Positions 3,831 through 30,940 of a stretch of 32,000 nt of DNA are shown piece by piece (the stretch's first letter is position 1; every line of letters begins with the position of its first letter). Source of the stretch: Candidatus Saccharimonadota bacterium (GTDB lineage: Bacteria > Patescibacteriota > Gracilibacteria > BD1-5 > UBA2023). The notes under the pieces are model-generated. The model was not told where the DNA came from, made no database searches, and saw only the letters and a list, made by a program, of their open reading frames with translations. Position numbers and translations under genes: made by a program. The DNA is taken from contig JAXLZO010000001.1 of the NCBI GenBank assembly GCA_046350815.1, forward strand, positions 1,251,674 through 1,283,673, read 5' to 3'.

Positions 3831-3891
3831 ACAAATATGGAATATACGATCAATATGGAATCATTGTACTGAAGAAAAAAAATGAAACAAT

Positions 3892-3920
3892 AAAAATACG
3901 TGGATATCCACGTATTTTTT
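3892..3920 (-). terminator. Intrinsic terminator downstream of rpoC
   Basis: Perfect palindrome AAAAATACGTGGATATCCACGTATTTTT, a GC-containing stem flanked by A and T runs. It lies 19 nt after the rpoC stop. Confidence 0.7.
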
Positions 3921-3938
3921 ATTGCTATGGGAATAAGA

Positions 3939-6900
3939 CTAAAGGGAAATATATTCATCTTCACCTGCGTCATCAAATGCAGCAACTAATTCACCACTAT
4001 CCAAATCATCATCACCTACCGATTCAATCGCCATAGGACCGTCATAAACGGTTTCTGGAAGATAGTATGGAGTTTCCTCGAGATCTTCTTGACCAAAGTA
4101 TTCACCGACATTTCGATTATTCTGAAAATAATCAAGAGTTGGAATAAGTCGACCAATGATCACATTTTCTTTGAGACCTTCCAGTTTATCAATCTTTCGA
4201 GCTGTTGAAGCCTCAACCAACACACGAACCGTTTCTTGGAACGATGCAGATGAGAGCCAACTTTCCGTAAAGAGAGAAATCTTCGTGAGACCAAGAAGAA
4301 GTCGAGTACCAATTGCCTGACGTTTCTCATCTTGCATGAGATTGTTGTTTTGTTTTTTGAACTCAATTACATCAACAATGTCACCAGGAAAGAATGTTGA
4401 ATCACCAGCATTCGTAATCTTTACCTTTGAGAACATCTGACGAACAATGAGCTCAATATGCTTTGAATTTACCGTCTGACCCTGAGATGCATAGATCTCT
4501 TTGATGTCATTAACAATATAGAGTTCTGTCGAGAGAGGATCAGTAAGTTCCATGAGTCGCTGAAGGTTGATATGTCCTTCTGTCAGTTTGGATCCAACCT
4601 TTACGGATTCCCCTTCTTTCACAAGGATAGAGCGAGATGCATCGATAGAATATTCGATCGTGCGAGGTGCCTCATCAACTATCACAATCGTATGCTTCGA
4701 TACCTCTTGAATGATACCAGTATGCTCAGAGAGGAGTTTACCTTTATGTTCTGTAGATCGAGCAAGTGCTTGACGGGGGTCAATATGAGCTCATTTCTTC
4801 ACAACAACTGAGTATGTATCATCAGGAATATAATATTCATAACGATTCACTTCATCAGCCTTGATAGTCACAATAACAACCTGTCAATCATAGCGAAGTC
4901 CAACGACCTTTCCGGTCAACTCAGACATAACCGCTTCACCCTTTGGTGCGCGTGCCTCAAGAAGTTCTTCTACACGAGTAAGACCCACCGTGATATCACC
5001 ACCTTGTGTCGCAACTCAACCCGAATGGTATGTACGCATCGTGAGCTGTGTACCTGGCTCACCAATAGACTGAGCTGCAATAATACCTACTGGAGTACCC
5101 ATGATCGCTCGAGCATTCGAAGAAAGATCGAGACCATAACATTTTTGACATACACCCTCTGCCGTCTCACAAGTGAGAATCGATCGAACGTGTACCTCAG
5201 GGATCTCATGTTCGTTGAGTATAGCAAGAATTTCCTTCGTAACCAACTCCCCAGATGGAACAAGTACCTGTCCATGAAGCATAATATCACGAGCAACATG
5301 CTTTCCTTTGATTTTATCATCAAATGATTCTCGGAACACAGATTTTGAGAGCTCTCGAGTTACTGTCTCATATTGGAGAGTTCCACAATCTTCTTCACGA
5401 ATGAGAATATTTTGAGCAGCATCGACGAGACGACGTGTCAAATAACCAGATTGTGCTGTCTTGAGCGCCGTATCTGCCTTACCTTTACGACCGGAATGCG
5501 TATTGATAAAATACTCAAGCACTGAAAGACCTTCTTTATAGTTACCCTTAACTGGAAGCTCGATAGTTTTACCAGTTGGAGATGCTACCAATCATTTCAT
5601 TCCACACATCTGAGCAACGTTACCCCAATCTCAACGTGCACCAGAATCAATGAGATTGAAGATGGAGTTTTGTTGATTGAACGATGTTTTCATCTCAGCG
5701 GAAACCTGATTTTTTACGATATTCCACACCTTGATAGTCTGTTCATATCGTTCTTTGTCAGTCAGAAGACCATGCCAGTAAGCACGCTGAATAAGCTTGA
5801 TTTTATCTTCCCCATGTCGTACAAGATCATCTTTGTTTGCCGGAGTAAACATGTCAGATTTTGAGATTGAAAGACCAGAAACAGTTGCATATTTAAAGCC
5901 TGTATTCTTGATACGATCAGCAAAGAATGCTGTCTCTTCGCCACCCTTAAGATCAAAAGATCGAGAGAGAAGTTTTTTAAGAGCTTTTTTATTGAGGGTC
6001 TCATTCACAAACCCAAGAATAGGATCAACAACCTCATTGAACAAGACACGACCATATGTTGTCTCAAGAATCACACCTTCGATACGAATCTTGATAGGCA
6101 TATGGAAGGTAATAACTCCGTTGTCATACGCCATGGTTGCATCTTCCTTGTTCGCAAAAACATGCTTTGCCTCCGTATCTTCATCCTTTCGAGTCAAATA
6201 GTAACACCCAAGTACCATATCCTGTGAAGGTGATACGATCGGTTCACCATTTGATGGATTGAGTATGTTCTTCGAAGTAACCATGAGTCGCGCTGCCTCC
6301 TCCTGTGCTTCATCAGTTATTGGTACATGTACCGCCATCTGATCACCATCAAAATCGGCATTAAACGCACCACAACAAAGTGGATGAAGTTGAATTGCTT
6401 TTCCTTCGATGAGCCGTGGACGGAAAGCTTGAATACCAAGACGATGAAGTGTCGGAGCACGATTGAGAAGTACATGTTTACTTTTAATTACCTCATCAAG
6501 TGCATCCCACACCTCTCGTCCACCATCTTCGATAATTTTCTCGGCCATTTTCGGGGTAAATGCAACTTCATCTTCGATAAGTTTTCCGATAACAAAAGGC
6601 TTGAAGAGCGTGAGTGCCATAGATTTTGGCAATCCACATTCGTTCATCTTAAGTGTTGGACCTACGACGATTACTGAACGACCAGAGTAGTCAACTCGCT
6701 TACCGAGAAGGTTCTGGCGGAATCGACCTTGTTTTCCCTTGAGAATATCTGCGAGGGATTTGAGCTTCTTACGATTTGCTGCAGTGTAACCTGGACGATT
6801 TGAGCGAACATCACCACTAATAAGTGTATCAATAGACTCCTGAAGCATACGCTTCTCATTCTTGAGAATCACATCCGGAGCACCAAGTTGAGTTAGTTTT

Positions 6901-8015
6901 CTCAGACGATTGTTTCGATTGATAACGCGACGATAGAGATCATTGAGATCAGACGAAGCATATCGTCCACCATCAAGCTGAATCATTGGTCGAAGATCCG
7001 GCGGAAGAATTTGGAGTGCTTCAAGGATAAACTGTCCTGGTTTTTGATCAGATTTAAAGAGAGAAGATGCAAGCTTCAATTTTTGAAGAATTTTCTTCTG
7101 ACGAGATTTTGGAGCAGCCTTAAGTTCTGCTTGGTTTTCCGCTATGAAAGCACGAAGATCAATGCGATCAAGGAGAATCTTGATATACTCAGCACCCGTT
7201 CCACCCTTGAATACATGAGGGAACTTATCATAGAGATGACGATAGTCCAATTCACCAATGACGACCGCTGGAGCGAGATCTTTAAGGAGTGTTTTAAGAC
7301 CTTGATACTCTGCTTCAAGTACATCGAGTTGAGACATGAGACCAGCCTCAACTTCTGAGAACATCTTCTTTGTAATCGCTTTTTCCTCGAGTTTGAGTTT
7401 TGCCTCAGAGAGAGATGATTGGATTTTTCTCTGGAGCTCCGTCTTGTGAGTTTTATAGGCATTATCCAAATTTGAAAGAGCCTCATCACGCTTATCCTCA
7501 TAAACATCAGTGATGATATAGCTCGCAAAATAGACAACTTGGTCGAGCTTCTTTGCAGAAACATCAAGAAGAAGGCCAATACGTGAAGGAACGGATTTGA
7601 GATACCAAATATGGACAACTGGAGCCGCAAGTTCAATATGACCAGTTCGTTGGCGTCGCACTTGTGATGTCGTAACCTCTACTCCACAACGCTCACAAAT
7701 CACACCCTTATATCGAATACGCTTGTATTTACCACAAGCACATTCGTAATTCTTGCGAGGACCAAAAATTTGTTCACAGAAGAGACCACCACGTTCAGGT
7801 CTTTGAGTACGATAGTTGATCGTCTCAGAGATGAGAACTTCACCATAGGAAAGGGAGCGAACTTCTTCTTTTGAAGAGAGCCCAATCGCAATACCCACAA
7901 GATTATCAAGAGTTTTACCTGCAGTAATATCCTTCTTACCAGCATTTTTTCCAATCTGTGTATAATCGGTGATTTTATCATTGAGGAGATTCTCGAGAAG
8001 CTTATCAGAAAACAT
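3939..8015 (-). CDS. rpoC: DNA-directed RNA polymerase subunit beta' (1358 aa)
   Basis: It joins track ORFs 5631-8015, 5016-5591 and 3939-4685, plus the interval 4686-5015, all in one frame. Motifs present: Zn finger [23 protein letters not shown], the catalytic loop [12 protein letters not shown], and [15 protein letters not shown]. There are five in-frame TGA, three of them at invariant Gly positions: DSGAR-G (5631-5633), GMK-G-L (5592-5594) and YHSG-G-VA (5016-5018). Confidence 0.97.
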
Positions 8016-8036
8016 AGATTTTGAGAAATGAGAAAA

Positions 8037-11000
8037 CTAAACTTCATCACTGAGTGCACCAGATGTCACTGGAATAGCCGCACTTTCCTTGTTATCACCC
8101 GTTGGAATATCGACTTCAATATCAAATTGTCCCTCAAGGCGTTCGAGCTCATCATAGCGAGCTGCTTGTTCTGTCTCAATCGTTTCAATTCCTTCTTTAT
8201 CGAGAAGTTCGATCTGAAGATTAAGTGCCTGGAGTTCACGCAACAATACATTGAATGATTCTGGCATATTTGGACGCTTGATTGGCTTCTTTTTCACAAC
8301 CGCTTCATATGCCTGAGCACGACCATTGATGTCATCAGACTTGATCGTGAGCATTTCCTGAAGGATATTTGCCGCACCATATCATTCGAGAGCCCACACT
8401 TCCATTTCTCCGAGACGCTGACCACCACGTTGAGCTTTACCTCCGAGTGGCTGTTGTGTTACCATCGAATAAGGACCGACGCTACGAGCATGGATTTTAT
8501 CTTCAACAAGGTGATGAAGCTTGAGCATATAGGTGAGACCTACAAATGTTCTCTCCTTAAATGGTTCGCCCGTTCGACCATCGAAGAGTTGAGTCTTTCC
8601 ATCACTATCAATACCAGCTTCTTCCATAAGCTTATCGATCTGCTCGATAGAGAGACCATTAAGTACTGGGGTCGCTACCTTAATACCGAGTTTTTTCGCT
8701 GCGAGACCGAGGTGTGCCTCAAGAATCTGTCCAATATTCATACGAGATATGACACCATGTGGATTGAGCACAATATCAATAGGCGTTCCGTCTGCCATAT
8801 GTGGCATATCTTCCAGAGCCATGATACGAGAGACAATACCCTTGTTTCCATGACGACCCGCCATCTTATCACCAACCTCAATTTTTCGAGTTTGAGCTAC
8901 GAATACTTTCACTTCTTCGAATACACCGGTCGAGAGACTATCCCCATTCTCACGACGAAGAATATGAACACCGATAACCTTACCAGATGTTCCGATAGGC
9001 ATAACCAGTGATGAATCCTTTACATCCTTTGACTTGTCACCAAAGATAGCTCGAAGGAGACGCTCTTCAGGAGAGAGTTCCATTTCACCCTTTGGAGTAA
9101 CTTTACCAACGAGAATATCACCAGCCTCAACCGTACTACCAACTCGAATAATACCATTTTCATCAAGATTTCGAAGCTTTGTTGCTGATACATTTGGAAT
9201 ATCAGAAGTTGTCTGCTCAGGGCCAAGTTTCGTCTCACGAACATCCATGATGTACTCAGTAATGTGCACTGATGTATAGTAGTCATCCTGCATAACACGA
9301 GAAGAGAGGATGATTGAATCCTCAAAATTATAACCACCCCATGGCATATATGCTACAACGAGATTGCGACCAATCGCAAGTTCACCATCTTCAATAGATT
9401 GACCATCAGCAAGAATATCACCCGGCTCGATTCGCTGACCAGCGGAAACGAGTGGCTTTTGATGAACGAGCATATCATGATTTGATCGCTCAAAAGTCAT
9501 GAGCTCATGAGTCACTTTCTGGCCATTATCATAGATAACAGTGATATGTTTGCCATCTACTCCAATAACTTGTCCATGATCGATTGCCTTGATCACATAC
9601 CCAGAAGCCTCACCAATTTGTCGCTCCATACCAGTACCTACCACCGGCGCCTCAGCACGAATGAGTGGAACTGCCTGTCGCATCATGTTTGTCGCCATTT
9701 CCGCACGAGTTGCATCATCATGTTCCAAGAATGGAATAAGAGAAGATGATTCAGAGAATATTTGCTTTGGAGAGATATCAATATGTGTTACCTGACGAAG
9801 GTGCTCTGTTGTTGCTTCAAAGTGGCGACGAGCAGCTACGCGAGTCTCAAGGAAATTCCCATGTTCATCAACAGGAGCATTTGCCTCCGCAATGATAAGA
9901 TCCTTCTCTTCATATGCATCAAAATACTCAACGGTATCAGTAAGATAGGCTCTCACCCAAAGTTCTTCATGAGGATATCGAGATTTGATCTCCTGCGCAA
10001 TCTCTGCTGTAATGAGCATCTTTTCATCGATAATCATCTCGCCCTTTGCATCCAAGAGAGCCTCTCGAGTCACACGATGTACTGACGATATTCCATCATT
10101 TACGACACTATGACCGAGCTTACGAAATGGAGTTGTAATAAATCCATATTTATCGACGCGTGCATAGCTCGCAAAGTGAAGTACGAGACCGATATTCTGA
10201 CCTTCTGGAGTTGCAAGAGGACAGATTCGACCATACTGTGTCGGATGAATATCACGAACCTCGAACCCAGCACGTTCTCTCGTGAGACCACCATTACCGA
10301 GGGCAGTCAGACGACGCTTGTTAGCAAGCTCTGAGAGGGGATTTGACTGATCCATAAACTGAGAGAGCTGCGAAGTACCAAAGAACTCCTTGAGTACTGC
10401 GGTCACTGGACGAGCATTAATAAATGTACCTGGTGTTGCATCATCAAGTTCAAGTATTGTCATACGATCCTTTGCAATCTTCTCAAGACGAGTAATACCC
10501 ACCTTAATACGATCAGATACAAGCTCACCAACCGATCGCACACGACGATTTTCAAGATGATCAATGTCATCAACACTAAACCCAGGAAGACGAAGCTGAA
10601 GACTCATCAGATATTTGAGACCTTCAACAAGATCTGCAAGTTGCAAGAATCGTCCGTCACCCTCATAGGCAATATCAACACCAAATTTTCTCTTGATCTT
10701 CATACGAGCTACCTCACCAAGATCGAATTTCTTGATATCAAAGAATGTTGTTGCAAAGAGTTGCTCAACACGTTCATCAGTACCAAGATCACCTGGGCGA
10801 ATAAGTTTGTAGAGAGCATAGAGAGCCTCAAGACGAGATTTTGTTTTATCCTTCTCAATAGTCGGACCAATATGTTTCGAGAGAAACTCAGGATTTCCAG
10901 AGAATGCCTGAATAATCTCAGCATCAGATTCAAGTCCATGAGCACGAAGAAGAACCGTAACAGGGATCTTACGCTTCTTGTCGACTTTTACCATAATAGC

Positions 11001-11612
11001 ACCCTTTTTCTCGATCTCAACCTCAAACCAAGACCCCTTTGCTGGTATAATCTTCATTGCGAAAGAACCAGGAGTCTTTGGATCATTCACCATGAAAATA
11101 CCGTTCGAACGGATAATCTGATTGACGATAACACGCTCAACACCATTCACGATAAATGTACCTTGCTCAGTCATAAGTGGGATACCACCCATATAAACCT
11201 CTTGCTCCTTGATCTCACCAGAAACCTTATTCAGCATTTCAAACTTTGCTTTGAAAGGTGCTTCGTAATTGAGATTTTTTCTCTTACACTCAGAAATCGA
11301 ATACTTTGGTTCTTCGATAGAGAGACTCTTGTAATAGATAGAAACCTTTTCACCAGAAAAATCATCAATCGGGAATGCATCAACAAACGCCTGATTGAGG
11401 AGATGATCAAGAAAGTATTTATAGCTCTCGAGTTGAACTTCAATCATTTCTGGAAGTTCAATAATCGATCGGTCATCGCTAAAGAAATATCGACCTCGTA
11501 TGTGGTAGAGACCACCAAGTCGAGGATCAAGATCACTCTCACGAATCTGAGCTGGAACATGTATAGACTCTTGGGTTCGAGCCTTGTACGTACGCGGAGA
11601 CTTTGGAGCCAT
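8037..11612 (-). CDS. rpoB: DNA-directed RNA polymerase subunit beta (1191 aa)
   Basis: Track ORFs 8382-11612 and 8037-8354 share a frame and are joined by one TGA (8382-8384) inside GEMEVWALE[10 protein letters not shown]. Unmistakable beta-subunit sequence runs throughout, for example [12 protein letters not shown] and the C-terminal ...[11 protein letters not shown]. The stop is TAG at 8039-8037, and rpoC starts 21 nt downstream. Confidence 0.97.
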
Positions 11613-11641
11613 GGAATGCTTCGAGTTTATATACTAAAAAA

Positions 11642-11680
11642 TTTGTTCACCGCAACAATTACTCAAAAAAGGTGAACAAG
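11642..11680 (-). promoter_or_regulatory. Hairpin plus T-run in the rpoB leader (attenuator-like)
   Basis: On the minus strand: CTTGTTCACC, a 19-nt loop, GGTGAACAA, then ATTTTTT. The element ends about 30 nt upstream of the rpoB ATG. The stem is 9 bp. Confidence 0.35.
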
Positions 11681-11790
11681 GACGGGGGAAGTATAGGGAG
11701 AAAGGTCAGAAAGTAAAACAAATTGTCAATCAAAAATCTTTGCAAAAGTGAAAATGATATGAGACAATGCAAGCAAAATAATATGTTAAG

Positions 11791-14148
11791 ATGTCTACAT
11801 CGCCAGAATCTCATATACAATCCCTCGAGGAGCGAGCACAAAATATTCAGAAATCATACCATGAGAGCACTGATCTTATTGGTGGGTGAGTTGATAAAAT
11901 AGTATGACTCTCCGGTGGTGAAACCGTGAAAAATGAATACATCAGACAAATAAATCTTATAAAGAAACAAGCAAATGAGGAGAGGAAAAAACTTCTTAAA
12001 GCCATTGCAGACAAACAAATCAATCAACGGACAGTCGCACCATTACTTACTCGACTCAATACAATCGCAAAACAAGAGCTGGAAGATACCTCTTTTTTGC
12101 AAGCCGCAAAAAATACCGATGTTGTACAAGCAGGAAAAAATGCAGTCTCTGGTGTGCAATGAGAAATAAATGGAGTGGTACATAGCACCGTTTCCATTAT
12201 TACTTGAACATTCGATTTACTCAAATTTCTGGGAAAATACAGCGTCAGTTATCTCGGTTATCACCCTGAATATAAAGACAAGGTAAACGCGCAAGCTCAA
12301 AAACTCTATGGATATCTCAAAAAAGAGGGTATGTGATGAGTCCAAGAAAAAGCTGTGGTACTTTTTAATCAAGAAATAGAGAGAATCAGTAAGCTTCCAC
12401 AAGAACAACAAGCAAAAGCTATCGGTAATATTACTGGAAATATAATTGGTATGCTGCTAGTTATGAAAGCGGGCACAGTAGCAGTTGAGAAAATCGGAAA
12501 AATAAGCAAGCAAACGAAACGTGGAGAGATTCTTCTTGCTCGTGAAATAAACAAAGATACTCCAAACTTAGTACGTACACAAAAACTGAAATGACTCCTA
12601 AAATCTGCTGATCAAACTAAAAAAACTCTCACAATCGCAAATATAGCACTCAATGGTGTTGCAGAGAGTATGATAGGAGCAGTGCTCACTAAACAACTTT
12701 ATCCAGCCATAGAGTTCTTTGAGAATAAAACAGAATCGATGGGTTTAAAAATTGAATTATTAGAAAAAACTCTGAAAGATTTGGATAACACATATCGTAG
12801 AGAGACAAATACAGAAAAAAGGCAAGAAATTTTGCAAGTAATAGAAACATACAAAAACAATATTTCAGTACAAAAAATAGTAAAATATCAACAAAAAAGA
12901 GATGCTATTTTAGAGAGAGCTTTTCAGAGATCAGCTGAGATGTTTCATATCGGGGAAGACATTCTGAGAAAAAATCCAGACATAGATTGAACTGGTCTTG
13001 CACAAAAGATCGAGGATCATTTCATAAAACAAGGAGTCCAACTTTCCAAAGATCAAAAAGAAATGTTAAAGATAACAGCAGCATCACTGGAAAAAGCAAA
13101 GCAAAAGAGACAGGTACAACTAGAAGAAATATTTCAAAAAGCATGAATTGCTATACCAAAAAAGTTGGAAGATATTGAATATATGATGAATACGAATTCA
13201 AATATTCAATTTGAGGAATGGAAAAACTATTCCATAAGACATTGAGGTATAAATTACATTAATATGATTCTTGCAAGAAATAAGAATGCAACTCTAAAAA
13301 TAATGAGGAGCGTATGATTAAACGGGGATGTACAAAATCTCACGCAAACGCAGAAAGAAAAACTAGTATGGCATCTTGAATGATGAATTACGACTATCAA
13401 ATTTAATATTAGCTCTCATCCAACCTGCATTATTCACGAATTTAGAAAAGCAAGTAGTTATATTGAGCAAGAGTCAAGGTGACACATGGATCTATGAACT
13501 GGAAAAATATATATCAAGGGTGGGAGAAGAAAAAAAGATATGAACTCAACTATTGAGCATGAATATCAACACTTTTTAAATCTTGCATTTCTAGAGCCAA
13601 TCGAAAAACAAATGTTGGATAAATCGCTTGGAAGCACAAACGATGTTCTCGCCTTTCAAACAAGGTTTGGTAAGAAACTGAATGAATCCCGTGAGCTCGA
13701 ATATCAATGGGAAGCCATGAAAGATGAAATTGCATCATATCTTGAGAGAAATGGGAGATTACCACAAACAATTGATTCATACCTATCAACAGGAAGCGAT
13801 GGAAAAGTCTTAAAGAGATTCGGAGAAAATATGGACAATGTCATCATAATAGACAGTATTCTACACGTACTATTAGTTCTCGGTATCAAAAAACAAGAAA
13901 TTGTTGATATAGTGAGAACTTCTGGTGGATTTGAACATGCGTACAATAGATTGCGAGAAAAATATAAACATATTGTCAATATTCCTATTGATATAACTTC
14001 ATGGAAAGCCTTTATAGACTCATGGAGAAATAGGAATGATGTGGACGCTGATTTATGGAGGAAAGCTCTGGTTAATCCAATGTATAACTTTACTGGACAT
14101 CCAAATCTAATTGAACCAATTAAAGCCTCAATATCTAAAAATGAATAA
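11791..14148 (+). CDS. 785-aa coiled-coil protein with central hydrophobic Gly-rich segments and a C-terminal region carrying an HExxH motif (possible zincin or toxin-like module)
   Basis: ATG at 11791, TAA at 14146-14148. Track ORFs 11926-12162, 12355-12594, 12670-12990 and 13540-14148 are all in frame 1. I read every gap between them and found only TGA stops. Hydrophobic segments: AIGNITGNIIGMLLVMKAGTVAV and IALNGVAESMIGAVL. HEYQH occurs in NSTIEHEYQHFLN. There is no signal peptide. Confidence 0.8.
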
Positions 14149-14743
14149 ATTATTTCTTGCTCTCTCATTGTGCATAGCTTTCACACCAACCATCACTTCT
14201 GCTGCACCCCACTTCGAGCCCACTCACCCATTTCCAACTGCCAATCAATCACAGAATGCCTGCTATTTCAATTCGGTTAATATCGCTGTCGAAGCAAAAT
14301 ACGGAACAAAAATTCGTATGAAAAGGGTGCTTCAAATAATTGATTTTGATGGGACAAGCCTTGCTACATGGGATTACAAGAAGCGATTCTCCGATCTCAC
14401 CCATATCAGAGTCCATGAATACAGTAGCAAAAAAGACCTAATAAAACTTCTTAATCAATGAGAACCAGTCCTGGTAAGCACCGAGATCAAACTCAAATCA
14501 TGAAAATTCATACGTCATGTATCGGTTGCTTACAGTTACGACAATAAGAGTATATGGGTGAGTGATCCTCTCGGTAACAAGAGAAAAAGCATCGCTTGGA
14601 GCGAGGTATTTCAGAAGAGTGGCAAAGTACGATTTAACAACCTTCGGACCGTTTCTGTAAAGCCGTATCCAAAATGGAATGAAAATTCAAAAAATCGGGA
14701 AGAAAAAGAGGATATTTGGTTAGATGAAAAGAGAATCAAATAA
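14141..14743 (+). CDS. Secreted papain-fold cysteine peptidase, C39-like (200 aa)
   Basis: The ATG at 14141 overlaps the upstream stop by 8 nt (ATGAATAA). Signal peptide MNKLFLALSLCIAFTPTITSA. The Gln/Cys motif QSQNACYFNS and the His motif RHVSVAYSYDNKSIWVSDP match the Q...C / H..V..gyd....v.DP layout of C39-like peptidases. Two in-frame TGA join track ORFs 14111-14461 and 14558-14743. Confidence 0.72.
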
Positions 14744-20298: not shown

Positions 20299-21051
20299 GG
20301 GTCTAAACCAGTTACGGGTTATATTGACGAAGTAACTTTAGCACTTCCTTATAAATATCTTTTCATTGAATACGACAATTATATCTGAATTCAGATTCTT
20401 TCAAAAAATAGTAGAAGTAGACTTTCTTGATTCCATTGAATTGAGAGAGTCTTCTTTTGGTATAACTCCAAAATGACTCTATTCAATTAATGTGTTGAGT
20501 TCATCTTGCAAATTCATTTGCTCCGTGATGAACACGGTAGTGTTTCTCATATCCAATATCTACAAGCCCATCATAAGCTCACCATCCATCACTGTTAATC
20601 TCAGACTCTTCTATACGAAGTTTTCATCGAATGATTGGCACGAGAGTCCTTGCTTTTACATCAGGAACTATCTCAGTATATACTTTTCAGTTTCTTTTGA
20701 GTAAACCAAAGACTATTGTCTTCATACCAGCTCACCTTCCTCTCTTTCATCGGACTCTTGTTGGTCAGAAGTAACTCTCATCTATCTCAACATTTCCAGT
20801 CCATATTTCATTCTTTTCTCTCTCACAGAGAAAGGCTATCGCCTTTCTGATATATCTATACCAATCCTGTGTTGTTTTTGGATTGAGACCTGTTAATACC
20901 GCTGTTTTATCTGAAGTAAAATCCAGAGAAAAATATTTCACAATTTCTCTTATTTTTGCATCTCAAATTCGTGATTTTTTCCTATAGGTAGTTTTACTGA
21001 TCATAGAGCCAAGTTTATGGGATAATTTATCCTGTCAACTGGTTTAGACCC
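20299..21051 (-). mobile_element. IS1595-family insertion sequence (753 bp) with 15-bp perfect TIRs and a 7-bp target-site duplication
   Basis: The left TIR GGGTCTAAACCAGTT (20299-20313) is the exact reverse complement of the right TIR at 21037-21051. Direct repeats CAATTTA flank the element at 20292-20298 and 21052-21058. It encodes a single transposase ORF. Confidence 0.85.
20312..21004 (-). CDS. IS1595-family (ISXO2-like DDE) transposase, 230 aa
   Basis: ATG at 21004, TAA at 20314-20312, inside the TIR. I checked every codon and counted 10 in-frame TGA. Family-typical motifs: VEIDESYFG, RGKRGRGAG, KTIVFGLLKRNGKVYTEIV, INSDGWGAYDG, HYRVHHG, HINGIESFWSYTKRRL and ESEFRYN. Several conserved Gly in these motifs are encoded by TGA. 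Confidence 0.85.
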
Positions 21052-25392: not shown

Positions 25393-26167
25393 AACTTCTC
25401 TCGTACTAGGCGGTGGTGGTATCCGATGATGTGCACACATTGGCGTCTATAAAAGAATGTGTGAACTCTGAATACAACCAGATGAAATTGTTGGAACGAG
25501 TATTGGTGCAATTGTTGGTGCATTTATAGCGTTTGGACTCTCTGCGGATGATATGGAAAATATTATCAAGAGTATTCCGACCACCATTCTTCTCTCACCA
25601 GATTTGAAGACTGGGCTTCTCTCTCAAAAGGGTATGATCAAGTATTTCTCAAAGTTTCTTGGCACATCCGCACGAATAGAAGATGCTCATATACCACTCA
25701 AGATTGTCGTAACAAACTTTGATACAGGAGAGAAAGAGATCCTCACCTCATGACCTCTCCTCCCCGCTATTGCAGCCTCAGCTGCTATACCAAGCCTCTT
25801 TACTCCAGTTCTTATTGATAAGTATCGTTATATTGACGGTGGGATTGTCGACAATCTTGCTGTCAGTGAAGCAAGCTACGAGCATATCATTGCAGTCAGT
25901 GTAGTGGGTGGCAGCATCATGAAGAAATCAAAGAGAAAAAAGGCTTCCGTTTTCTGAATCAACATCTTTACGCCATATCGTGCCTACGAAGATCTCATTC
26001 AAGCGTTCAAGATCATGCTTATGCAAAATGAACTCGCAAAATTTTGAGAGAAAAGAGAGAAAATAACCCTAATTAAACCCAATGTTGATGGAGTCAATCT
26101 CCTCCAAATCAACAAAGCACTTTATGCAATGAGGCAAGGATATATTGCAGGAAAAGAAAGTCTATAA
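25376..26167 (+). CDS. Patatin-like phospholipase (263 aa)
   Basis: The ATG at 25376 overlaps the Nudix gene by 17 nt. Oxyanion motif LGGGGIR-G (TGA at 25427-25429), nucleophile elbow GTSIGA and catalytic Asp motif YIDGGIVDN. Track ORF 25553-25753 is the central piece. Confidence 0.85.
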
Positions 26168-26189
26168 AACTCCGCTTAAGCGGAGTTTT
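26166..26189. terminator. Bidirectional intrinsic terminator
   Basis: Perfect palindrome AAAACTCCGCTTAAGCGGAGTTTT, between the patatin stop (26167) and the convergent stop at 26193-26195. Confidence 0.75.
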
Positions 26190-26192
26190 ATA

Positions 26193-28637
26193 TTAAAATT
26201 GATCAATATAAGTTGTAAATATATACATATCAAATGCATTTCAATATGTATTTTTCACATATCCAGATGCTGGACCGTATATAGTTCCAGTTCCAGGATC
26301 AGAAAATTGGTGATCAAATGTTTGAACTCCTAAGTGAGTAATCGTATTTGGAAGCGTAACAGATGTAAGGTTATTATAAGCAAATGCTAAGCTACCTATA
26401 GTAGCCATCCCTTGAGGAATAACAACCGTAGTAAGTTGATTGTTTGCGAATGCATAAAATCATTCATACAGTCATCAAATAAATGTGGTGCCAGGAGCAA
26501 ATGATAGCGATGATATTTGATTATAACGAAAGGCTTCACTTCATATTGAAGCTCCAGTTGACAATAGCACAAGATCAGTAATTTGATTATTCGCAAATGC
26601 TCGATCTCAAATACTCGTTACGCTTGATGGAATCGTCAAATGAGTAAAATTATTATACTGAAAAGCTCACCCAGAAACACCTCATCAAATACTCGTTACA
26701 CTTGATGGAATCGTCAACGAAGATATCTGATTATTTACAAAAGCTCATTCGGCGATACCCACAACGCCTCATGGAATCGTCAACGAAGATAGCTGATTAT
26801 TTCGAAAACCATTATATGGAATGTAGAGCAGATTTTGTGATAAAGTAAGAGAACTGATTTGATTAAAGGCAAATGCATAACTACCGACCTGATCGATACT
26901 ATCAGGAAGATCAAGTATTGAGATATTGTTTCCATAAAATGCATAACTACCGATATTTGTAATTCCATTCGGTATAACAGCACTGTTGAGACCTTTATTT
27001 TGAAAAACCGAAGAACTAATAGCCGTCACATTAACTCATCAAATGTTACACGGAATAACAACATCAGATGGACCATTATATGCTGTAATAGTTTTCGTGG
27101 AGGCATTAAATGTAAAATAACTTTCATCTGTCACATTTGATGCATTGGTACACACCACTTCTGGAGGTGGAAGACTAATCTCCAGTTCATGTTGAGACCC
27201 CACATAAAAATCAGTTGAACTCGTTGATCCTGTACAACCATAGGGAGTAACATCGAGAAAGCTTGACTGTGGAGTACAAGCTATACTCGCATATGGAGTC
27301 TCAAATGCTATATTCGATGGCATATTAGTACTGCCAGCAAGAATAGTAACGGGAGATTGATAGTTGCTATCTAGAATGAATGTATCAATCACATATCCAT
27401 CCACCGTATCATCTATGAGTGACCCAGGAGTAATCGTCGTAATAGTCACTCCATAAGTTGCATAGAGAGATATAGTAAGAGGCCCTATATATCCATAGTA
27501 GGTATTCCCCATAATACTATACTCTCCCATAGTAAGTATATGACTTACCGGTCATCCTCCTCCACCTCCAGAATCACCACCCCCAGAACCTGATCCACTC
27601 CCCGTACCACTATTCATCCCCAAAAGACTCTTCTCATCAAAGCTTCCATTCTTCAGAGCATTGAGTGATCCAGTAGAAATAGAGGTAGAGAAATATTCAT
27701 CATTTCAAGAAGATCAAACAAGAATATCATAATTACTACTATCACTCAAAGAGATATCTCTACTTCCTGTACCCGTTACTCCATTCTGAAGAGGTTGCTT
27801 ACTTCCCTTGGAGAGAAAGATTCAGAGTCTATCTCCTGCAGAGTAGGGATATCTGGAGGAGAGATCAACAGTACTACTGTCGAGTGCATAGGCAGTACTG
27901 AAGGGATACATTATATCTCAGGCGTACGCCTGAGATACTTTCATTCCTTCCATTGTTCCTTCTGTTGCTTCACGAAGTGAAGCAGAAAGCATACCTCAAA
28001 AGTCTGAGAAGGTTCCAAGAAGAGACTGCGAAGCAGTCTCTTGTATTCCTTTCAATTGTCCTCCAAACTTATCCACTCCAACTTCTTGATTCCCCCTGTT
28101 CAGATTATCATCTCCTCTTCCACTTCATCCACCATCCAATCATCCTTCATTCATTCCAATCTTCTCATTTCCATGAAACTTTCTTCCAGCAATCTCTATA
28201 GTCCTCTCAAATCTTGGATTCTCAAGGTATGCAAGAAACTGTGCTTGGTCGTAGTGTTGATTGACTCGATAGGTATAGGGTATATTGTCTTTGGGATCAA
28301 AGATCTTATCTGATCCATACCCAAGAGGATTCACAATACTCGTACTCATGAATCCTTGGTATCCAATGAATGTTCCACTGACAGTGAGAGATACACTATC
28401 TGCTATGGGAGTAGGAAGCTTTCGAAGTTGTGCACTCGTAATCCTTGCACTCTCTGACAATGTCTTAATATCACTAATTCTCTTTCCATCTCTTGCTACT
28501 GATGACTGATGACTCATCACTACAAACCCTATCACGGATAGTATAGAGAGTATGGTGATGACTACTATGAGTTCGGTGAGGGTGAAGGCGGAATGTTTCT
28601 TGGAGAGGGAAGCAATCTTATTACGTATATTTTGTAT
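26193..28637 (-). CDS. Giant modular type IV pilin-like protein: prepilin N-terminus, pilin-like globular region, Gly/Ser linker, beta domain, C-terminal BspA-type LRRs (~814 aa; start codon uncertain)
   Basis: It joins track ORFs 28140-28535, 27039-27530 and 26769-27029, which share one frame. I checked all gaps codon by codon: 21 in-frame TGA. TAA at 26195-26193. N-terminus ...SLSKKHSA/FTLTELIVVITILSILSVIGFVV, a class III signal-like sequence. No ATG, GTG or TTG lies between the upstream in-frame TAA (28643-28641) and the FTLTE motif; only ATA (28637, 28628) or ATT (28616) are available. LRR units include IPNGITNIGSYAF, LPDSIDQVGSYAF, IPSSVTSIG and IPQGMATIGSLAF. Confidence 0.7.
26607..26810. 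repeat. Near-identical DNA copies of LRR-unit coding sequence
   Basis: 26607-26639 and 26685-26717 are 32/33 identical with a 78-nt offset. 26705-26744 and 26771-26810 are about 36/40 identical with a 66-nt offset. Confidence 0.8.
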
Positions 28638-28678
28638 ATGTTAAAATAATGGGGATATGGAGCATTTAGATATAAGTT

Positions 28679-30940
28679 CTAATTTAATCATGTAAGAGGT
28701 GGTTCTATATGGAGTGTGTTGTAACCATTAGTACGATCCCCCCAACAAGCCACACTATTGTCATTTTTTAAAGCACAAGTATGGTACTCTCAAGCATCGA
28801 TGTCAACTACATTACTCAATCATACTGGAACATTTGTCTGTCCATATCAGTTGTCACCCCAACATATAACATTTCATCATGTAATCGCACATGCGTGAGA
28901 GTCACCAACAGTTACCTTAGTAATACCAGTAGTATTTGGTATTGTCCATGGTGCTACCCACTGATTTCAGTTAGCCTTGCGTCACCAACACATCACAGAT
29001 TGATCATCATGACGTATACCACAGGTATCATACCAGCCAGCAGATATAAAATCGAATGCAAATCAAGGTGCTTCGTTTTCACTTCACCAGCAAACCACTC
29101 AACCTCTATTATCGAGAGCACAGCTATGTTCTGCTCATGTTGTTACCTGAACAAAATCAGTTCGTGAAGTTATTTCAGCTGGAACATCTTGCCCATAACA
29201 TTTTATACTACCGTTTGAATTCAGTGCACATACATGTTGCCAATTGATATCTATGCCTGATTCATTGCTAAAATATCCAGTTGGTATCTCTTCAATTTCA
29301 TCCCAGTTATTATACTCATTGTCATACCCATCACTTCACCAGCAAGAAACATTTCCATCGCTTGTGCGAACACATCCGTTCCATCATCCAACATCAATAT
29401 GTGTTGCGTTTGTGATTCATGGTGGAAAATTTTTTGCTCCGTACCAATTGTAACCCCAGCATATAATTCATCCGGTGGAGCTAATTCCACAAGTATGATC
29501 TACTCATGCTGCAATACGTTTTTCTGTTACAATTGGAGAAAAATGAATGACTGGTGGTGGCGGAGGTGGAGGATCAATCTGAATTTGAATATAAGGAAAT
29601 AACAATGATGAGGAGATTGAAACGGTTTGCCCGTTGGGTGTTATATTAGATTGGCTTTTTTGTTCAAAACTTGTTCAATAATCAGTATCCGTTGTCGCCC
29701 ACCATGTTCCCAAATCCCCAAGAAGTACATTTTCATCAAAATCAAGATAGGTAAGATGGGTAAGATTCTCGAGAGAATCAGGAACAGTATTTATATCTAA
29801 GTTATGCCAGAAAGATAGTTCTGTTAAATTTGATAAATTTCCAATAAACTCAGGTATGATAGAGATTTGATTGTAAGATAGATAGAGTTTTTGTAGCCCA
29901 GTAAGAGATTGAATCTCTAATGGAACTACTGTGAATGAATTATTTCCAAGATCAAGTATTTCTACATCCCGCAACTTCGCAACAGCATTTGGAATATCTG
30001 TAAGCCCCAGATTATTCCATTGAAGATTGGTCATCGCACACCAATCTTCAGCTGTATAACTCTCTCACTTTACAGCGTTGAGATCAATTACTTCTTGACT
30101 TGTGAGTCCACATGTTGGATCATTCGATCCACCACCTGATCCCGACCCGCTACCACTACTCGATCAACTTGATGCTACGATCGTAGCGCCTGCAAGCAAG
30201 GTATCAAGTCCGTTGTTCGTCTTGAGAGCAGTAGTTCCAGTTCCTTCGATAGCAGAAAGTTTAAGGGATTCATTCACATAGAGGAAATAGTTCGTATCTA
30301 TACCAGATGATCCAAGATCAAGAGTGCCTGTATTGGTATTTGTATTGTAGATTAATGCATTTGCTGGCTCATTGGTGGTACTACTTAAAATAATACCGAG
30401 CTTATCTCCATAGACATAGGGAACTCTCTTGGAGAAATCAGTTGCTTGAGCAGTATTGATTCAAAGAAAGGTAGAAAAATCAGCAAGAAGAATATCACCT
30501 CGAGAGATAGATGACGAGCCATTTTCAAGATAGGCAAGATACTGACTCTTGTCCCTTGCTTGTCCTACCCGGTAGATATAGGGAGTATGGTCTTGAGGAT
30601 CATAGACACTATCTGAGTATCCATAGGCTTGTGCTACGTATCATGACATATATCCTTGCCATCCAATATCGATACCACTTACGGTAAGTGCAATAGCTTG
30701 ATCTGGGAGAGGAAGCATTCTCTGTTGTACTGCCTGAAGCTGACTCGCATCATAGATATTCTTAATGCTCGCCAAACGATTTGAATCACGAGCAGATACG
30801 GTAGCATCATTCATCATAATAAATGCTACCAAACCAAGGATGGAGAGGATGGTGATGACAATGATGAGTTCTACGAGGGTGAATCAGGAGTGTTTCTTTG
30901 AGAGAGAAAATATAACTCTTGAGCTACTTAAGTCTTTCAT
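28679..30940 (-). CDS. Giant modular type IV pilin-like protein: canonical prepilin signal, pilin-like region, Gly/Ser linker, classic LRR domain, Pro-rich linker, 7-blade RCC1-like beta-propeller (753 aa)
   Basis: ATG at 30940, TAG at 28681-28679. I checked every codon outside track ORFs 30641-30832 and 29675-30034: 23 in-frame TGA and no TAA or TAG. Leader MKDLSSSRVIFSLSKKHS-G/FTLVELIIVITILSILGLVAF, with the -1 Gly encoded by TGA (30884-30886). LRR units such as LRDVEILDLGNNSFTVVPLEIQSLTGLQKLYLSYNQISIIPEFIGNLSNLTEL. Linker PPPPPPP. Seven blades of the form HTCGI..GGIICWG, ending in GDNGYGQTNVP and YHTCALKNDNSVACWG. Confidence 0.85.

What the first reader, a model, noticed from the sequence alone, without database searches (positions are those of the whole stretch)
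26193..30940. Tandem paralogous giant modular pilins: type IV prepilin N-termini fused to LRR and RCC1 adhesin-like modules
Two adjacent minus-strand genes share a homologous N-terminal region of roughly 130 aa:
- SKKHS(G/A)FTL(V/T)ELI(I/V)VITILSIL...
- ...LTVSG..IG(W/Y)QG(Y/F)MS...
- ...PY(I/T)YRV...(Y/F)LAYLEN.

This has the hallmark class III signal, the hydrophobic alpha1 helix and Glu5 of type IV pilins or pseudopilins.

Instead of ending at about 150 aa, both continue through a Gly/Ser linker into large, different C-terminal modules. One carries a beta domain plus about 10 BspA-type LRRs (814 aa). The other carries classic 22-24-residue LRRs, a poly-Pro linker and a complete 7-blade RCC1-like propeller (753 aa).

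Modular pilins with grafted adhesive modules are known in a few Gram-positive systems. I do not recognise an LRR plus RCC1 propeller carried on a pilin stalk as a described architecture.

In a code-25 CPR-type organism, where an epibiotic or predatory lifestyle is suspected, such proteins are good candidates for host-cell attachment or recognition devices displayed on pili.
Basis: partly seen in the sequence, partly recalled or inferred. Interest (0 to 1): 0.85.

Follow-up and report, generated by a model that had tools for sequence, protein, structure and literature searches.

The report
Modular type IV pilins, Gracilibacteria
Two neighbouring genes of an uncultured UGA-recoded Gracilibacteria genome encode pilus subunits with large sticky modules (leucine-rich repeats, an RCC1 propeller) on their ends; this design is real but already catalogued and common in these bacteria.

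Summary
Read with UGA as glycine, window 28679-30940(-) (gene B, 753 aa) and 26193-28640(-) (gene A, 815 codons) both carry a prepilin signal (Pfam N_methyl above cutoff) and a shared pilin module (50% identity, E=2e-38). A second shared domain and a Gly/Ser linker follow, then different modules:
- B has one Cys-capped LRR unit, poly-Pro and seven RCC1 repeats.
- A has a beta domain and about 11 BspA-type LRRs.

AlphaFold2 models of close proxies give a long alpha-1 helix plus a four-stranded sheet (block pLDDT mostly about 90). A family profile hits solved type IV pilins.

The novelty claim does not hold:
- The carrier defines a large family (1,635 representative clusters), mostly in UGA-recoded loci labelled Gracilibacteria or Peribacteria.
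- Members form tandem arrays, some next to PilB/PilC/PilT genes.
- The same 1.28-Mb MAG has four more A-type paralogs: carrier 93-96% identical, LRRs 26-50%.
- Raynaud et al. 2021 list pilin+BspA-LRR, pilin+RCC1 and pilin+LRR.
- Saccharibacteria PilX2, a minor pilin with an RCC1 propeller, contributes to host binding.
- Only the LRR+RCC1 combination seems unlisted.

Caveats: gene A has no canonical start codon before its pilin motif, and no pilus machinery lies in the window.

The parts
28679..30940 (-). Gene B: modular type IV pilin-like protein, 753 aa (code 25), ATG start, TAG stop
   Evidence: ORF and translation. Pfam finds N_methyl, LRR_8/LRR_4 and RCC1_2. Logan contigs L004 and L005 are 100% identical in DNA across the whole gene.
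30884..30940 (-). B leader peptide MKDLSSSRVIFSLSKKHSG; the -1 Gly is a TGA codon
   Evidence: TIGR02532 scores 25.9 bits against a cutoff of 16.3.
30521..30883 (-). B pilin module (F1, E5, alpha-1 helix plus 4 beta strands), aa 20-140
   Evidence: 50% identical to A. AlphaFold2 of the proxy P0121 (gene B with W written at TGA codons) gives helices 22-46 and 48-73 and strands 80-138, with block pLDDT 84-96. The family profile matches solved pilins over the alpha-1 helix.
30167..30520 (-). B second carrier ('stalk') domain, aa 141-258, with family motif R-x-P-Y-x-x-G-D-[KR]-L-G-I
   Evidence: Shared with A at 37% identity, E=4e-6. Beta strands 173-221 are modelled at pLDDT about 90. The domain is conserved across the family consensus.
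30125..30166 (-). B Gly/Ser linker GSSSGSGSGSGGGS, the point where modules differ between relatives
   Evidence: Relatives with the same stalk carry other modules, or none, after this linker.
29576..30124 (-). B LRR unit: two-Cys cap (CGLTxxEVxxLN...WC), about 4-5 LRRs of 23 residues, and a C-terminal beta piece
   Evidence: Pfam LRR_8, LRR_4 and LRR_14. AlphaFold2 pLDDT is 92-97. Foldseek matches SHOC2, Leptospira LRR proteins and internalin A at E about 1e-6. The same capped unit is repeated 2-3 times in relatives.
29552..29575 (-). B poly-proline spacer DPPPPPPP
28682..29551 (-). B RCC1-like repeat region with seven blades, each ending in C[WY]G
   Evidence: Pfam RCC1_2 130 bits and WD40_RLD 80 bits. 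Seven motifs lie at aa 494-732. The structure model here is low-confidence.
26193..28640 (-). Gene A stop-to-stop ORF (815 codons): modular pilin-like protein with BspA-type LRRs; start codon uncertain
   Evidence: NCBI protein MFO0764418.1 (P0348) is 100% identical from Met42 onward.
28614..28616 (-). ATT codon, the most likely (non-canonical) start of gene A, giving the leader (M)ASLSKKHSA
   Evidence: This ATT-GCT stands immediately before TCC CTC TCC AAG AAA CA(T/C) TCC, where the L007 relative has ATG-CAT. There is no ATG, GTG or TTG between the upstream stop and the FTLTE motif.
28218..28586 (-). A pilin module (A|FTLTELIVV..., Glu5), ORF codons 19-141
   Evidence: N_methyl 25.5 bits. 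Ala at -1 is the majority state in the family, 77 of 137. The module is 93-96% identical to four paralogs in the same MAG.
27609..28217 (-). A Gly-rich insertion plus second carrier domain, codons 142-344
27552..27608 (-). A Gly/Ser linker GTGSGSGSGGGDSGGGGGG
27126..27551 (-). A beta-rich domain without a Pfam match, codons 364-505; shared with paralogs and with the L007 relative
   Evidence: No Pfam hit. It is 75-86% identical in three paralogs and present in L007_A.
26196..27125 (-). A BspA-type LRR array (about 11 repeats) with C-terminal cap ...YGPASGYVKNTY...
   Evidence: Pfam LRR_5 162 bits. NCBIfam HupY/LrrG adhesin 107 bits, below its cutoff. Only 26-50% identical among paralogs.
26163..26192 (-). 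Terminator-like hairpin (13-bp stem) directly after gene A; none between B and A, so the two may be co-transcribed
   Evidence: This is a consensus scan only.

Best explanation
Genes B and A are modular type IV pilin-family proteins, most likely minor, low-abundance subunits, of a UGA=Gly Gracilibacteria.

Each has a carrier: a class III signal peptide, an alpha-1 helix, a small beta-sheet pilin module and a second family-specific domain. A Gly/Ser linker joins the carrier to an effector module. In B the effector is one capped LRR unit, a poly-Pro spacer and a seven-repeat RCC1-like propeller. In A it is a beta domain plus a BspA-type LRR array.

Shown here:
- the domain content;
- the pilin-like signal and predicted fold;
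- membership of a large lineage-specific multigene family;
- conservation of the B-then-A tandem in a related genome;
- type IV pilus ATPase and platform genes next to family members in relatives;
- strong conservation of the carrier against divergence of the effector among five paralogs in the same genome.

Inferred:
- a prepilin peptidase cuts after Gly or Ala at -1;
- the alpha-1 helix docks the protein into a type IV filament, probably at the tip, which is possible without a secretin in this monoderm-like envelope;
- the exposed LRR or propeller modules bind host-cell surface ligands;
- the paralog repertoire supplies alternative binding specificities.
For: Prepilin signal:
- Pfam N_methyl and TIGR02532 score above their cutoffs in both proteins.
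- F+1 and E+5 are present in both. The -1 residue is Gly (a TGA codon) in B and Ala in A.
- Ala at -1 is the family majority: 77 A, 59 G (including TGA-encoded), 1 S among 137 members.

Pilin fold:
- AlphaFold2 of P0001 (82% identical to the B carrier) gives an alpha-1 helix at 20-71 and four strands at 78-136, with block pLDDT mostly about 90.
- AlphaFold2 of P0121 (gene B with W at TGA codons) gives the same topology.
- The family profile hits solved pilins over the whole alpha-1 helix: geopilin 7tgg_A at E=4e-11, and also PilA, PpdD and S. sanguinis PilE1 8pfb_G.

Effector modules:
- LRR_5 162 bits and RCC1_2 130 bits.
- LRR model at pLDDT 92-97, with Foldseek hits to internalin and Leptospira LRR proteins.

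Family:
- 202 hits were found with the B carrier. Where a source names them they are Gracilibacteria proteins, and they carry fibrinogen_C, Laminin_G_3 or CBM modules.
- 1,635 representative clusters match at E<=1e-30.
- 80 loci were recovered from GTDB species genomes, almost all in UGA-recoded DNA, with several loci per genome.

Linkage to pilus machinery in relatives:
- 10 recoded loci have a T2SSE ATPase within 10 kb of a pilin-family match.
- In L020 a T2SSE ATPase is directly followed by three modular pilins.
- L076 has T2SSE, T2SSF and a PilT-like ATPase beside pilins.
- L006 has a PilT-size T2SSE about 3.5 kb upstream of a B-type then A-type tandem.

Paralogs: in the same MAG the carrier is 93-96% identical and the LRR array 26-50%.

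Literature:
- modular pilins as adhesins (PMC8179133);
- TM7x PilX2, whose deletion reduced host binding (PMC11623550);
- Gracilibacteria encode PilB, PilC, PilD and PilT but no PilQ (PMC6851277) and express type IV pili (PMC11452946).
Against: - No pilus assembly gene or prepilin peptidase lies in the 32-kb window. The rest of this genome could not be read.
- Foldseek of the carrier model found no significant PDB match. The best pilin hit was 4bhr_B at E=9.6.
- Gene A has no canonical start codon upstream of its signal. NCBI's own gene model starts at Met42 and lacks the pilin motif.
- The RCC1 region modelled poorly, with pLDDT below 50.
- Ala at -1 departs from the near-invariant Gly of classical prepilins (own knowledge).
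- Nothing here shows processing, filament incorporation or ligand binding.
Confidence: 0.65

Rival explanations
1. The prepilin-type signal is used only for export and membrane anchoring, or for very short pseudopili. On this reading the proteins are cell-surface adhesins that are never built into long pili. The model is the archaeal 'bindosome', in which Sulfolobus sugar-binding proteins carry class III signals (own knowledge).
For: - The proteins are very large for pilins, and many copies exist per genome.
- Most family loci are not next to assembly genes: only about 10 of roughly 70 recoded loci have a T2SSE ATPase within 10 kb.
- The same BspA module also occurs on an ordinary signal-peptide protein in the window, at 1740-3938.
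Against: - The conserved 120-aa pilin module and second domain are far more than a signal anchor needs. They are the most conserved part among paralogs, at 93-96% identity.
- Some arrays sit directly after a PilB-like ATPase.
- Characterised analogues (S. sanguinis PilB and PilC, TM7x PilX2) are described as pilus minor pilins; PilX2's presence in the filament is itself inferred from mutant phenotypes.
Confidence: 0.2
2. Gene A is not expressed as a pilin. It would be a recently inactivated copy, or a start-less reserve copy whose near-identical 5' carrier sequence lets it recombine with the four expressed A-type paralogs.
For: - There is no ATG, GTG or TTG before the FTLTE motif, whereas the four paralogs and the L006 and L007 relatives have ATG starts.
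- NCBI models the gene from Met42.
- The carrier is 93-96% identical among paralogs.
- Two Logan assemblies break inside the conserved helix-coding sequence at 28566.
Against: - The 815-codon frame is fully intact, with 21 in-frame TGA codons and no TAA or TAG.
- An ATT codon stands immediately before the conserved SLSKKHS-coding stretch, where the L007 relative has its ATG.
- The gene lies 41 nt after B, with a terminator-like hairpin only after A. That fits co-transcription and coupled translation.
- No recombination event was observed.
Confidence: 0.25
3. The long ORFs are assembly chimeras that join a pilin gene to unrelated LRR or RCC1 genes at the low-complexity linkers.
For: Two independent Logan contigs end at 28566, inside gene A's conserved 5' region. 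The Gly/Ser linkers are low-complexity sequence.
Against: - Gene B is 100% identical end to end in two other assemblies, L004 and L005.
- The same carrier-linker-module layout recurs in other samples and sources: P0123, P0125, P0126, P0128, P0132 and P0351-P0353.
- It also recurs in four paralogs of the same MAG.
- The B-then-A tandem is conserved in L006.
- The contig break lies in the repeated helix-coding sequence, not at a linker.
Confidence: 0.02
4. They are type II secretion pseudopilins (GspG-like), as some database names say, and act in protein secretion rather than adhesion.
For: Some relatives are named 'type II secretion system protein' or 'PulG' by NCBI or JGI. TIGR01710 GspG matches aa 18-91 weakly.
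Against: - The GspG score of 21.6 bits is far below the 88.85 cutoff.
- The lineage lacks an outer membrane and PilQ or a secretin (PMC6851277).
- The C-terminal modules are binding domains, not piston subunits.
Confidence: 0.05

Closest known systems
Streptococcus sanguinis modular minor pilins PilB (vWA module) and PilC (concanavalin-like lectin module); Raynaud et al. 2021, Shahin et al. 2023
   Same: Both have an N-terminal class III signal and a small pilin module, joined by a short linker to a bulky binding module. Both occur in a monoderm envelope without a secretin and are proposed to be displayed at the pilus tip. Many relatives of genes A and B carry the very Laminin_G_3 lectin module that PilC has.
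   Different: - The modules here are LRR, BspA-LRR and RCC1.
- The carrier has an extra family-specific second domain.
- The -1 residue is often Ala.
- There are many paralogs per genome.
- There is no experimental evidence.
Nanosynbacter lyticus TM7x PilX2, a Saccharibacteria minor pilin with a seven-bladed RCC1-repeat beta-propeller (PMC11623550)
   Same: Both are pilin-like N-termini in a CPR bacterium carrying a C-terminal seven-blade RCC1-type propeller. Deletion of PilX2 roughly halved host binding, similar to the major-pilin and PilB2 deletions. That is the function proposed for gene B.
   Different: - PilX2 is reported to lack a predicted PilD signal, whereas B has a canonical one.
- B has an additional LRR unit and a poly-Pro spacer.
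Catalogued InterPro architectures IPR012902+IPR026906 (BspA LRR), IPR012902+IPR000408/PF13540 (RCC1) and IPR012902+IPR001611 (LRR), in Dataset S1 of PMC8179133
   Same: Gene A's architecture (pilin + BspA-type LRR) is the seventh most frequent modular-pilin architecture listed, with 18+6+3 proteins. Pilin+RCC1 (6 proteins) and pilin+LRR (1 protein) are also listed. The mapping of InterPro numbers to Pfam names is from my own knowledge.
   Different: No listed architecture combines LRR and RCC1 on one pilin. The listing is a catalogue without functional study.
Large multicopy 'GspG' proteins of the closed Gracilibacteria genome CP042461 (Sieber et al. 2019, PMC6851277)
   Same: The lineage and genetic code are the same. 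That genome has 15 pseudopilin-annotated proteins averaging 528 aa, together with PilB, PilC, PilD and PilT and no PilQ.
   Different: They were noted only in passing, without analysis as carrier-plus-module adhesins. Direct homology to A and B was not checked here.
Type IVb tip minor pilins CofB (ETEC) and TcpB (Vibrio cholerae), and the non-pilin tip adhesin PilY1 (own knowledge, and discussion in PMC8179133)
   Same: All combine a carrier that docks at the pilus tip with C-terminal beta-rich binding domains. PilY1 also has a seven-bladed propeller.
   Different: - These are diderm systems.
- CofB and TcpB modules are not LRR or RCC1.
- PilY1 is not a pilin, and its propeller is the carrier, not the effector.
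BspA/LrrA-type LRR adhesins and streptococcal HupY/LrrG
   Same: Gene A's C-terminal array is the same repeat type: LRR_5 at 162 bits, with a 107-bit partial match to the HupY/LrrG model.
   Different: Those adhesins use Sec signals and cell-wall or outer-membrane anchoring, not a pilin carrier. The HupY equivalog cutoff of 1250 bits is not met.

Membership tests
Type IV pilin / type IV filament subunit | Class III signal peptide: short basic leader, small residue at -1, Phe/Met at +1, Glu at +5, then about 20 hydrophobic residues | tested here: met
   Pfam N_methyl scores 32.6 bits (B) and 25.5 bits (A) against a cutoff of 21.2. TIGR02532 scores 25.9 and 24.2 bits against 16.3. The cleavage sites read KKHSG|FTLVE in B and KKHSA|FTLTE in A.
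Type IV pilin / type IV filament subunit | Alpha-1 helix of about 50 residues packed on a small antiparallel beta-sheet ('lollipop' fold) | tested here: inconclusive
   AlphaFold2 of close proxies gives an alpha-1 helix of about 52 residues plus four strands, with block pLDDT mostly about 90. The profile aligns the whole alpha-1 helix with solved pilins at E=4e-11. However, Foldseek against the PDB gave no significant match.
Type IV pilin / type IV filament subunit | Prepilin peptidase and assembly ATPase, platform and alignment genes in the same genome | not testable with these tools
   None lies in the 32-kb window, and the rest of the MAG could not be fetched. In relatives, T2SSE, T2SSF and PilT-like genes lie beside family members. 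The literature reports PilB, PilC, PilD and PilT in Gracilibacteria.
Type IV pilin / type IV filament subunit | Leader cleavage, N-methylation and incorporation into filaments | not testable with these tools
   Needs proteomics or imaging of a culture or enrichment.
Modular pilin (sensu Raynaud et al. 2021) | N-terminal pilin module plus at least one extra domain, not specific to pilus biology, recognisable by an independent signature | tested here: met
   N_methyl plus LRR_8/LRR_4 plus RCC1_2 in B, and N_methyl plus LRR_5 in A. The Gly/Ser linkers lie at 30125-30166 and 27552-27608.
RCC1-like seven-bladed beta-propeller | Seven RCC1-type repeats forming a closed propeller | tested here: inconclusive
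   Pfam RCC1_2 scores 130 bits against a cutoff of 22, and there are seven C[WY]G-terminated repeats. WD40_RLD scores 80 bits, below its 150 cutoff. The AlphaFold2 model of this region has pLDDT below 50, probably because the accepted proxy carries Trp at 16 TGA-encoded Gly positions in the propeller region.
BspA-type LRR (Pfam LRR_5) | Tandem LRR_5 repeats above the Pfam gathering score | tested here: met
   162.4 bits against a cutoff of 27.7, in two stretches, with about 11 repeats by eye.
T2SS major pseudopilin GspG (TIGR01710) | Equivalog score at or above 88.85 bits | tested here: not met
   21.6 bits for B, and no hit for A.
Gracilibacteria carrier ('stalk') family defined here (alignment A2) | Pilin module with the ARDxxR motif, invariant P, DP and E positions, and a second domain with R-x-P-x-x-x-G-x-x-L-G-I | tested here: met
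   The invariant columns R51, D52, R55, P77, D114, P115 and E139 are present in B. A and B both align. 1,635 representatives match at E<=1e-30.

The most novel reading that the evidence does not exclude
The A-type paralogs (at least five in one 1.28-Mb genome) form a recombination-driven host-range variation system. Their nearly identical carrier-coding 5' halves (93-96% at protein level) would serve as homology arms for swapping divergent LRR effector cassettes. Gene A, which has no start codon and sits 41 nt behind gene B, would be a silent donor copy, or would be expressed only by coupled non-AUG initiation. This would be a pilE/pilS-like scheme applied to whole adhesin modules in a CPR episymbiont.
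Probability: 0.1. Interest if true: 0.7.

Novelty: new member of a known kind. Interest (0 to 1): 0.33.

Why it matters
How ultrasmall CPR bacteria recognise and hold their hosts is an open question. Pilus-displayed binding modules are the leading candidates, and TM7x PilX2 is the first tested case.

This locus adds a well-defined example from the uncultured, UGA-recoded Gracilibacteria. It shows that the lineage keeps a conserved pilin carrier and diversifies what is attached to it: LRR, BspA-LRR, RCC1, fibrinogen-like and lectin modules. Several paralogs can occur in one small genome.

That gives concrete candidates for host-range determinants. It also gives an annotation lesson. With the wrong code, or with only canonical start codons, these genes are truncated or lose their pilin signal. 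The principle itself is already established, so the value is incremental.

Tried and rejected
- **Structure prediction of the window's own proteins.** I used exact proxies instead: P0001 (82% identical to the B carrier, with no TGA codons) and P0121 (gene B with W at TGA codons).
- **Foldseek of the carrier model against the PDB.** No significant hit. I treat this as inconclusive, because pilin crystal structures are N-terminally truncated and the model includes disordered parts.
- **Full-length B model.** The RCC1 half was unusable, so the propeller was not confirmed structurally.
- **Residue statistics at TGA columns in alignment A3.** These were confounded because the aligner matched the written W to real Trp. 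I rejected them as a test of the code and used the internal repeat and family evidence instead.
- **Fetching other regions of the same MAG.** I tried through paralog proteins P0349, P0350 and P0354. None was on record, so pilD, pilB and pilC in this genome remain unchecked.
- **tRNA and Rfam scans of the window.** Nothing found, so there is no tRNA-Gly(UCA) here.
- **Assembly-chimera idea.** Rejected on the basis.
- **T2SS pseudopilin reading.** Rejected: it scores far below the cutoff and the lineage has no outer membrane.
- **Promoter scan.** Not above chance.

Full report
**What is in the sequence.** The window has 39% G+C and is readable only if TGA is a sense codon. ORFs of at least 150 aa total 4,894 aa under table 11 and 21,213 aa under tables 4 or 25.
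- Gene B is 28679-30940(-): ATG start, 753 aa, 23 TGA codons.
- Gene A is the open frame 26193-28640(-): 815 codons, 21 TGA codons.
- Context genes are rpoB, rpoC, topA, dnaJ, a patatin-like gene, the polA 5'-exonuclease part, a transposase-like ORF and several secreted proteins. No pilus assembly gene is present.
- No tRNA or Rfam family is found in the window.

**Glycine, not tryptophan, at TGA.**
- The -1 residue of B's prepilin site is a TGA codon.
- Each of B's seven RCC1 repeats ends in C[WY]G. That Gly is TGA in three repeats and a standard Gly codon in four.
- Public translations of family members made with table 4 show 'W' exactly where other members have G, for example VWILSTVWFVSY against VGILSTVGFVSY.
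- The NCBI record of the same genome is labelled Candidatus Gracilibacteria.

**Domain content.**
- Pfam for B: N_methyl 32.6 bits, LRR_8 41 bits, LRR_4 38.5 bits, LRR_14 42 bits, RCC1_2 130 bits.
- Pfam for A: N_methyl 25.5 bits, LRR_5 (BspA type) 162 bits.
- NCBIfam adds the prepilin domain TIGR02532 above cutoff in both.
- A and B share 50% identity over 133 residues, E=2e-38. They also share a second block, B 148-225 against A 240-310, at 37% identity and E=4e-6.
- So the common 'carrier' is a pilin module plus a second domain. It ends at a Gly/Ser linker.
- After the linker, B has one LRR unit with a two-cysteine cap (CGLTxxEVxxLN...WC), about 4-5 repeats of 23 residues, a beta piece, DPPPPPPP and seven RCC1-type repeats.
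- After the linker, A has a 142-aa beta-rich domain without a Pfam match and about 11 BspA repeats.

**Is the N-terminus a pilin?**
- The signal is canonical: F+1, E+5 and a hydrophobic stretch.
- Ala at -1 in gene A looked odd, but it is the majority state in the family. Among 137 members there are 77 Ala, 21 Gly plus 38 TGA-encoded Gly, and 1 Ser.
- The predictor would not accept code-25 translations, so I modelled exact proxies.
- P0001 is 82% identical to B's carrier and has no TGA codons. Its model gives an alpha-1 helix at 20-71 and strands at 78-85, 88-95, 120-124 and 130-136, with block pLDDT mostly about 90. The second domain (strands 173-221) is also modelled at about 90.
- P0121 is gene B itself with W written at TGA codons. 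It gave the same carrier topology and a very confident LRR module (pLDDT 92-97), but a poor RCC1 half.
- Foldseek found no significant PDB neighbour for the carrier. It found clear LRR neighbours for the full model: SHOC2, Leptospira LRR proteins and internalin A, at E about 1e-6.
- A profile of the family matches solved type IV pilins over the whole alpha-1 helix: Geobacter pilin 7tgg_A at E=4e-11, and also PilA, PpdD, S. sanguinis PilE1 and Neisseria PilE.
- I conclude that the pilin signal and alpha-1 helix are established. The globular fold is pilin-like by topology but is not confirmed by structural search.

**The family.**
- A search with B's carrier alone returned 202 proteins. Where a source names them, they are Candidatus Gracilibacteria proteins. 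Most are 350-450 aa, with N_methyl plus fibrinogen_C, Laminin_G_3, Laminin_G_2 or CBM_4_9 modules.
- A profile search of 1.84 billion representatives gave 1,635 proteins at E<=1e-30.
- In GTDB species genomes, 80 loci were recovered. Most are labelled Gracilibacteria, Peribacteria or Patescibacteria, and almost all lie in DNA that reads as UGA-recoded. Several genomes have 4-5 loci each.
- Tandem arrays are common. In L020 a PilB-like T2SSE ATPase is followed directly by three modular pilins (fibrinogen-like, Laminin_G_3, Laminin_G_3). L028 has an array of 766, 746 and 531 codons. L076 has pilin, T2SSE, T2SSF, pilin and a PilT-like gene.

**Close relatives show module swapping on a constant carrier.**
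- B-type carriers at 70-82% identity are followed by two or three LRR units (L003, L006), by a Laminin_G_3 module in another frame (L001), or by nothing (L002).
- L006, from a JGI metagenome, has the same tandem order. A B-type gene is followed about 20 nt later by the frame of an A-type gene, and a PilT-size T2SSE ATPase lies about 3.5 kb upstream.
- The full-length A search found the window's own genome: an NCBI Gracilibacteria MAG with a 1,283,673-bp contig (P0348 = MFO0764418.1, 100% identical).
- It also found four more A-type paralogs in that MAG, of 865, 747, 773 and 671 aa.
- Against gene A, these paralogs are 93-96% identical in the pilin module, 81-88% in the second domain, 34-86% in the beta domain and only 26-50% in the LRR array.
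- The carrier is therefore held constant while the binding end diverges.

**Gene A's start.**
- Between the upstream stop (28641-28643) and the FTLTE motif there is no ATG, GTG or TTG.
- The L007 relative reads ATG CAT TCC CTC TCC AAG AAA CAC TCC TGA TTC. The window reads ATT GCT TCC CTC TCC AAG AAA CAT TCC GCC TTC.
- So ATT at 28614-28616 is the natural candidate start.
- NCBI's model instead starts at Met42 (28515-28517) and so loses the pilin signal.
- The frame is otherwise intact. The gene lies 41 nt after B, and a strong terminator-like hairpin occurs only after A, at 26163-26192.
- Whether A is translated from a non-AUG codon or is a recently silenced copy cannot be decided here.

**Assembly integrity.**
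- Two Logan contigs from other runs are 100% identical to the window over all of gene B, and both end at 28566.
- That position lies inside the helix-coding sequence that is near-identical among the A-type paralogs. It is not at a linker. The break is what a repeated k-mer would cause, not evidence of a chimera.
- The same architectures recur in unrelated samples.

**Most likely mechanism.**
- Shown: a pilin-type signal and carrier, adhesin-type modules, family-level linkage to pilus ATPase and platform genes, and diversification concentrated in the modules.
- Inferred: cleavage by a prepilin peptidase; insertion of the alpha-1 helix into a type IV filament, probably at the tip; no secretin constraint in this monoderm-like envelope; binding of host surface ligands by the LRR or propeller modules; and a paralog repertoire that broadens or switches specificity.
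- The main rival is surface anchoring without filament incorporation.

**Comparison with what is known.**
- Raynaud et al. 2021 defined modular pilins with S. sanguinis PilB. They catalogued 1,219 of them in 264 architectures, many in CPR bacteria.
- Their Dataset S1 lists N_methyl+IPR026906 (18, 6 and 3 proteins), six N_methyl+RCC1 architectures, N_methyl+IPR001611 and N_methyl+fibrinogen. It lists no LRR+RCC1 combination.
- Sieber et al. 2019 noted 15 large GspG-like proteins with PilB, PilC, PilD and PilT, and no PilQ, in a closed Gracilibacteria genome.
- TM7x PilX2 is a minor pilin with a seven-bladed RCC1-repeat propeller. Its deletion reduced host binding to about the level of the major-pilin mutant.
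- Gene A is thus an instance of a catalogued architecture. Gene B is a new combination of catalogued parts.

**Verdict.** The feature is real and correctly recognised, and it is biologically sensible. It is a new member of a known kind. Its interest is moderate to low as a discovery, but it is useful as a candidate host-recognition locus and as a warning about code-25 and start-codon annotation.

Noticed in passing
window 1740-3938 (-): A 697-aa protein has an ordinary N-terminal signal/TM segment, Cys-rich repeats and a BspA LRR_5 array (139 bits). Its C-terminal cap (...YGPSSGYVKSTY...) matches gene A's (...YGPASGYVKNTY...). The same effector module is therefore used on a non-pilin carrier in the same genome.
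   Followed up: partly
window 28515-28640 (-), gene A 5' end: The public NCBI gene model (MFO0764418.1, 774 aa) starts at Met42. It omits the prepilin motif because no canonical start lies upstream. The four paralogs in the same MAG have ATG starts and leaders of 12-44 residues.
   Followed up: yes
window 6897-11693 (+): Under code 25 a 1,599-codon ORF runs antisense to rpoC and rpoB, and other long antisense ORFs exist (for example 3990-6893 +). This is probably a by-product of having only two stop codons plus codon bias.
   Followed up: no
window 20315-21043 (-): A 243-codon ORF looks like an IS1595-type transposase. The judgement is by eye from its translation, without a family search.
   Followed up: no
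window 14111-14740 (+): A small secreted protein has a Peptidase_C39_2-like domain (27 bits, cutoff 24).
   Followed up: no
L001 9842-11289 and L002 4173-5000: A B-type carrier (about 70% identical) ends right after its Gly/Ser linker. In L001 a Laminin_G_3 module follows in a different reading frame. In L002 the module is absent. This points to frameshift or deletion at the linker in natural populations.
   Followed up: partly
L004 1-345 (same genome, about 10 kb beyond the window's 32000 end): Another, different prepilin gene (KKGG|FTLVELVVVITILGIL..., 257-aa gene call) lies upstream of polA, yceG and a tRNA synthetase gene. It could be a smaller pilin of the same system.
   Followed up: no
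L006 5311-9888: Directly upstream of the conserved B-type/A-type tandem in the related genome lie a PilT-size T2SSE ATPase, a cNMP-binding protein and a VirD4/TrwB-like coupling ATPase.
   Followed up: partly
window 28566: Two independent Logan contigs (SRR26348422 and SRR26348420) are 100% identical to the window, and both stop at this base, inside the FTLTELI-coding sequence. This fits a repeat shared by the A-type paralogs.
   Followed up: yes
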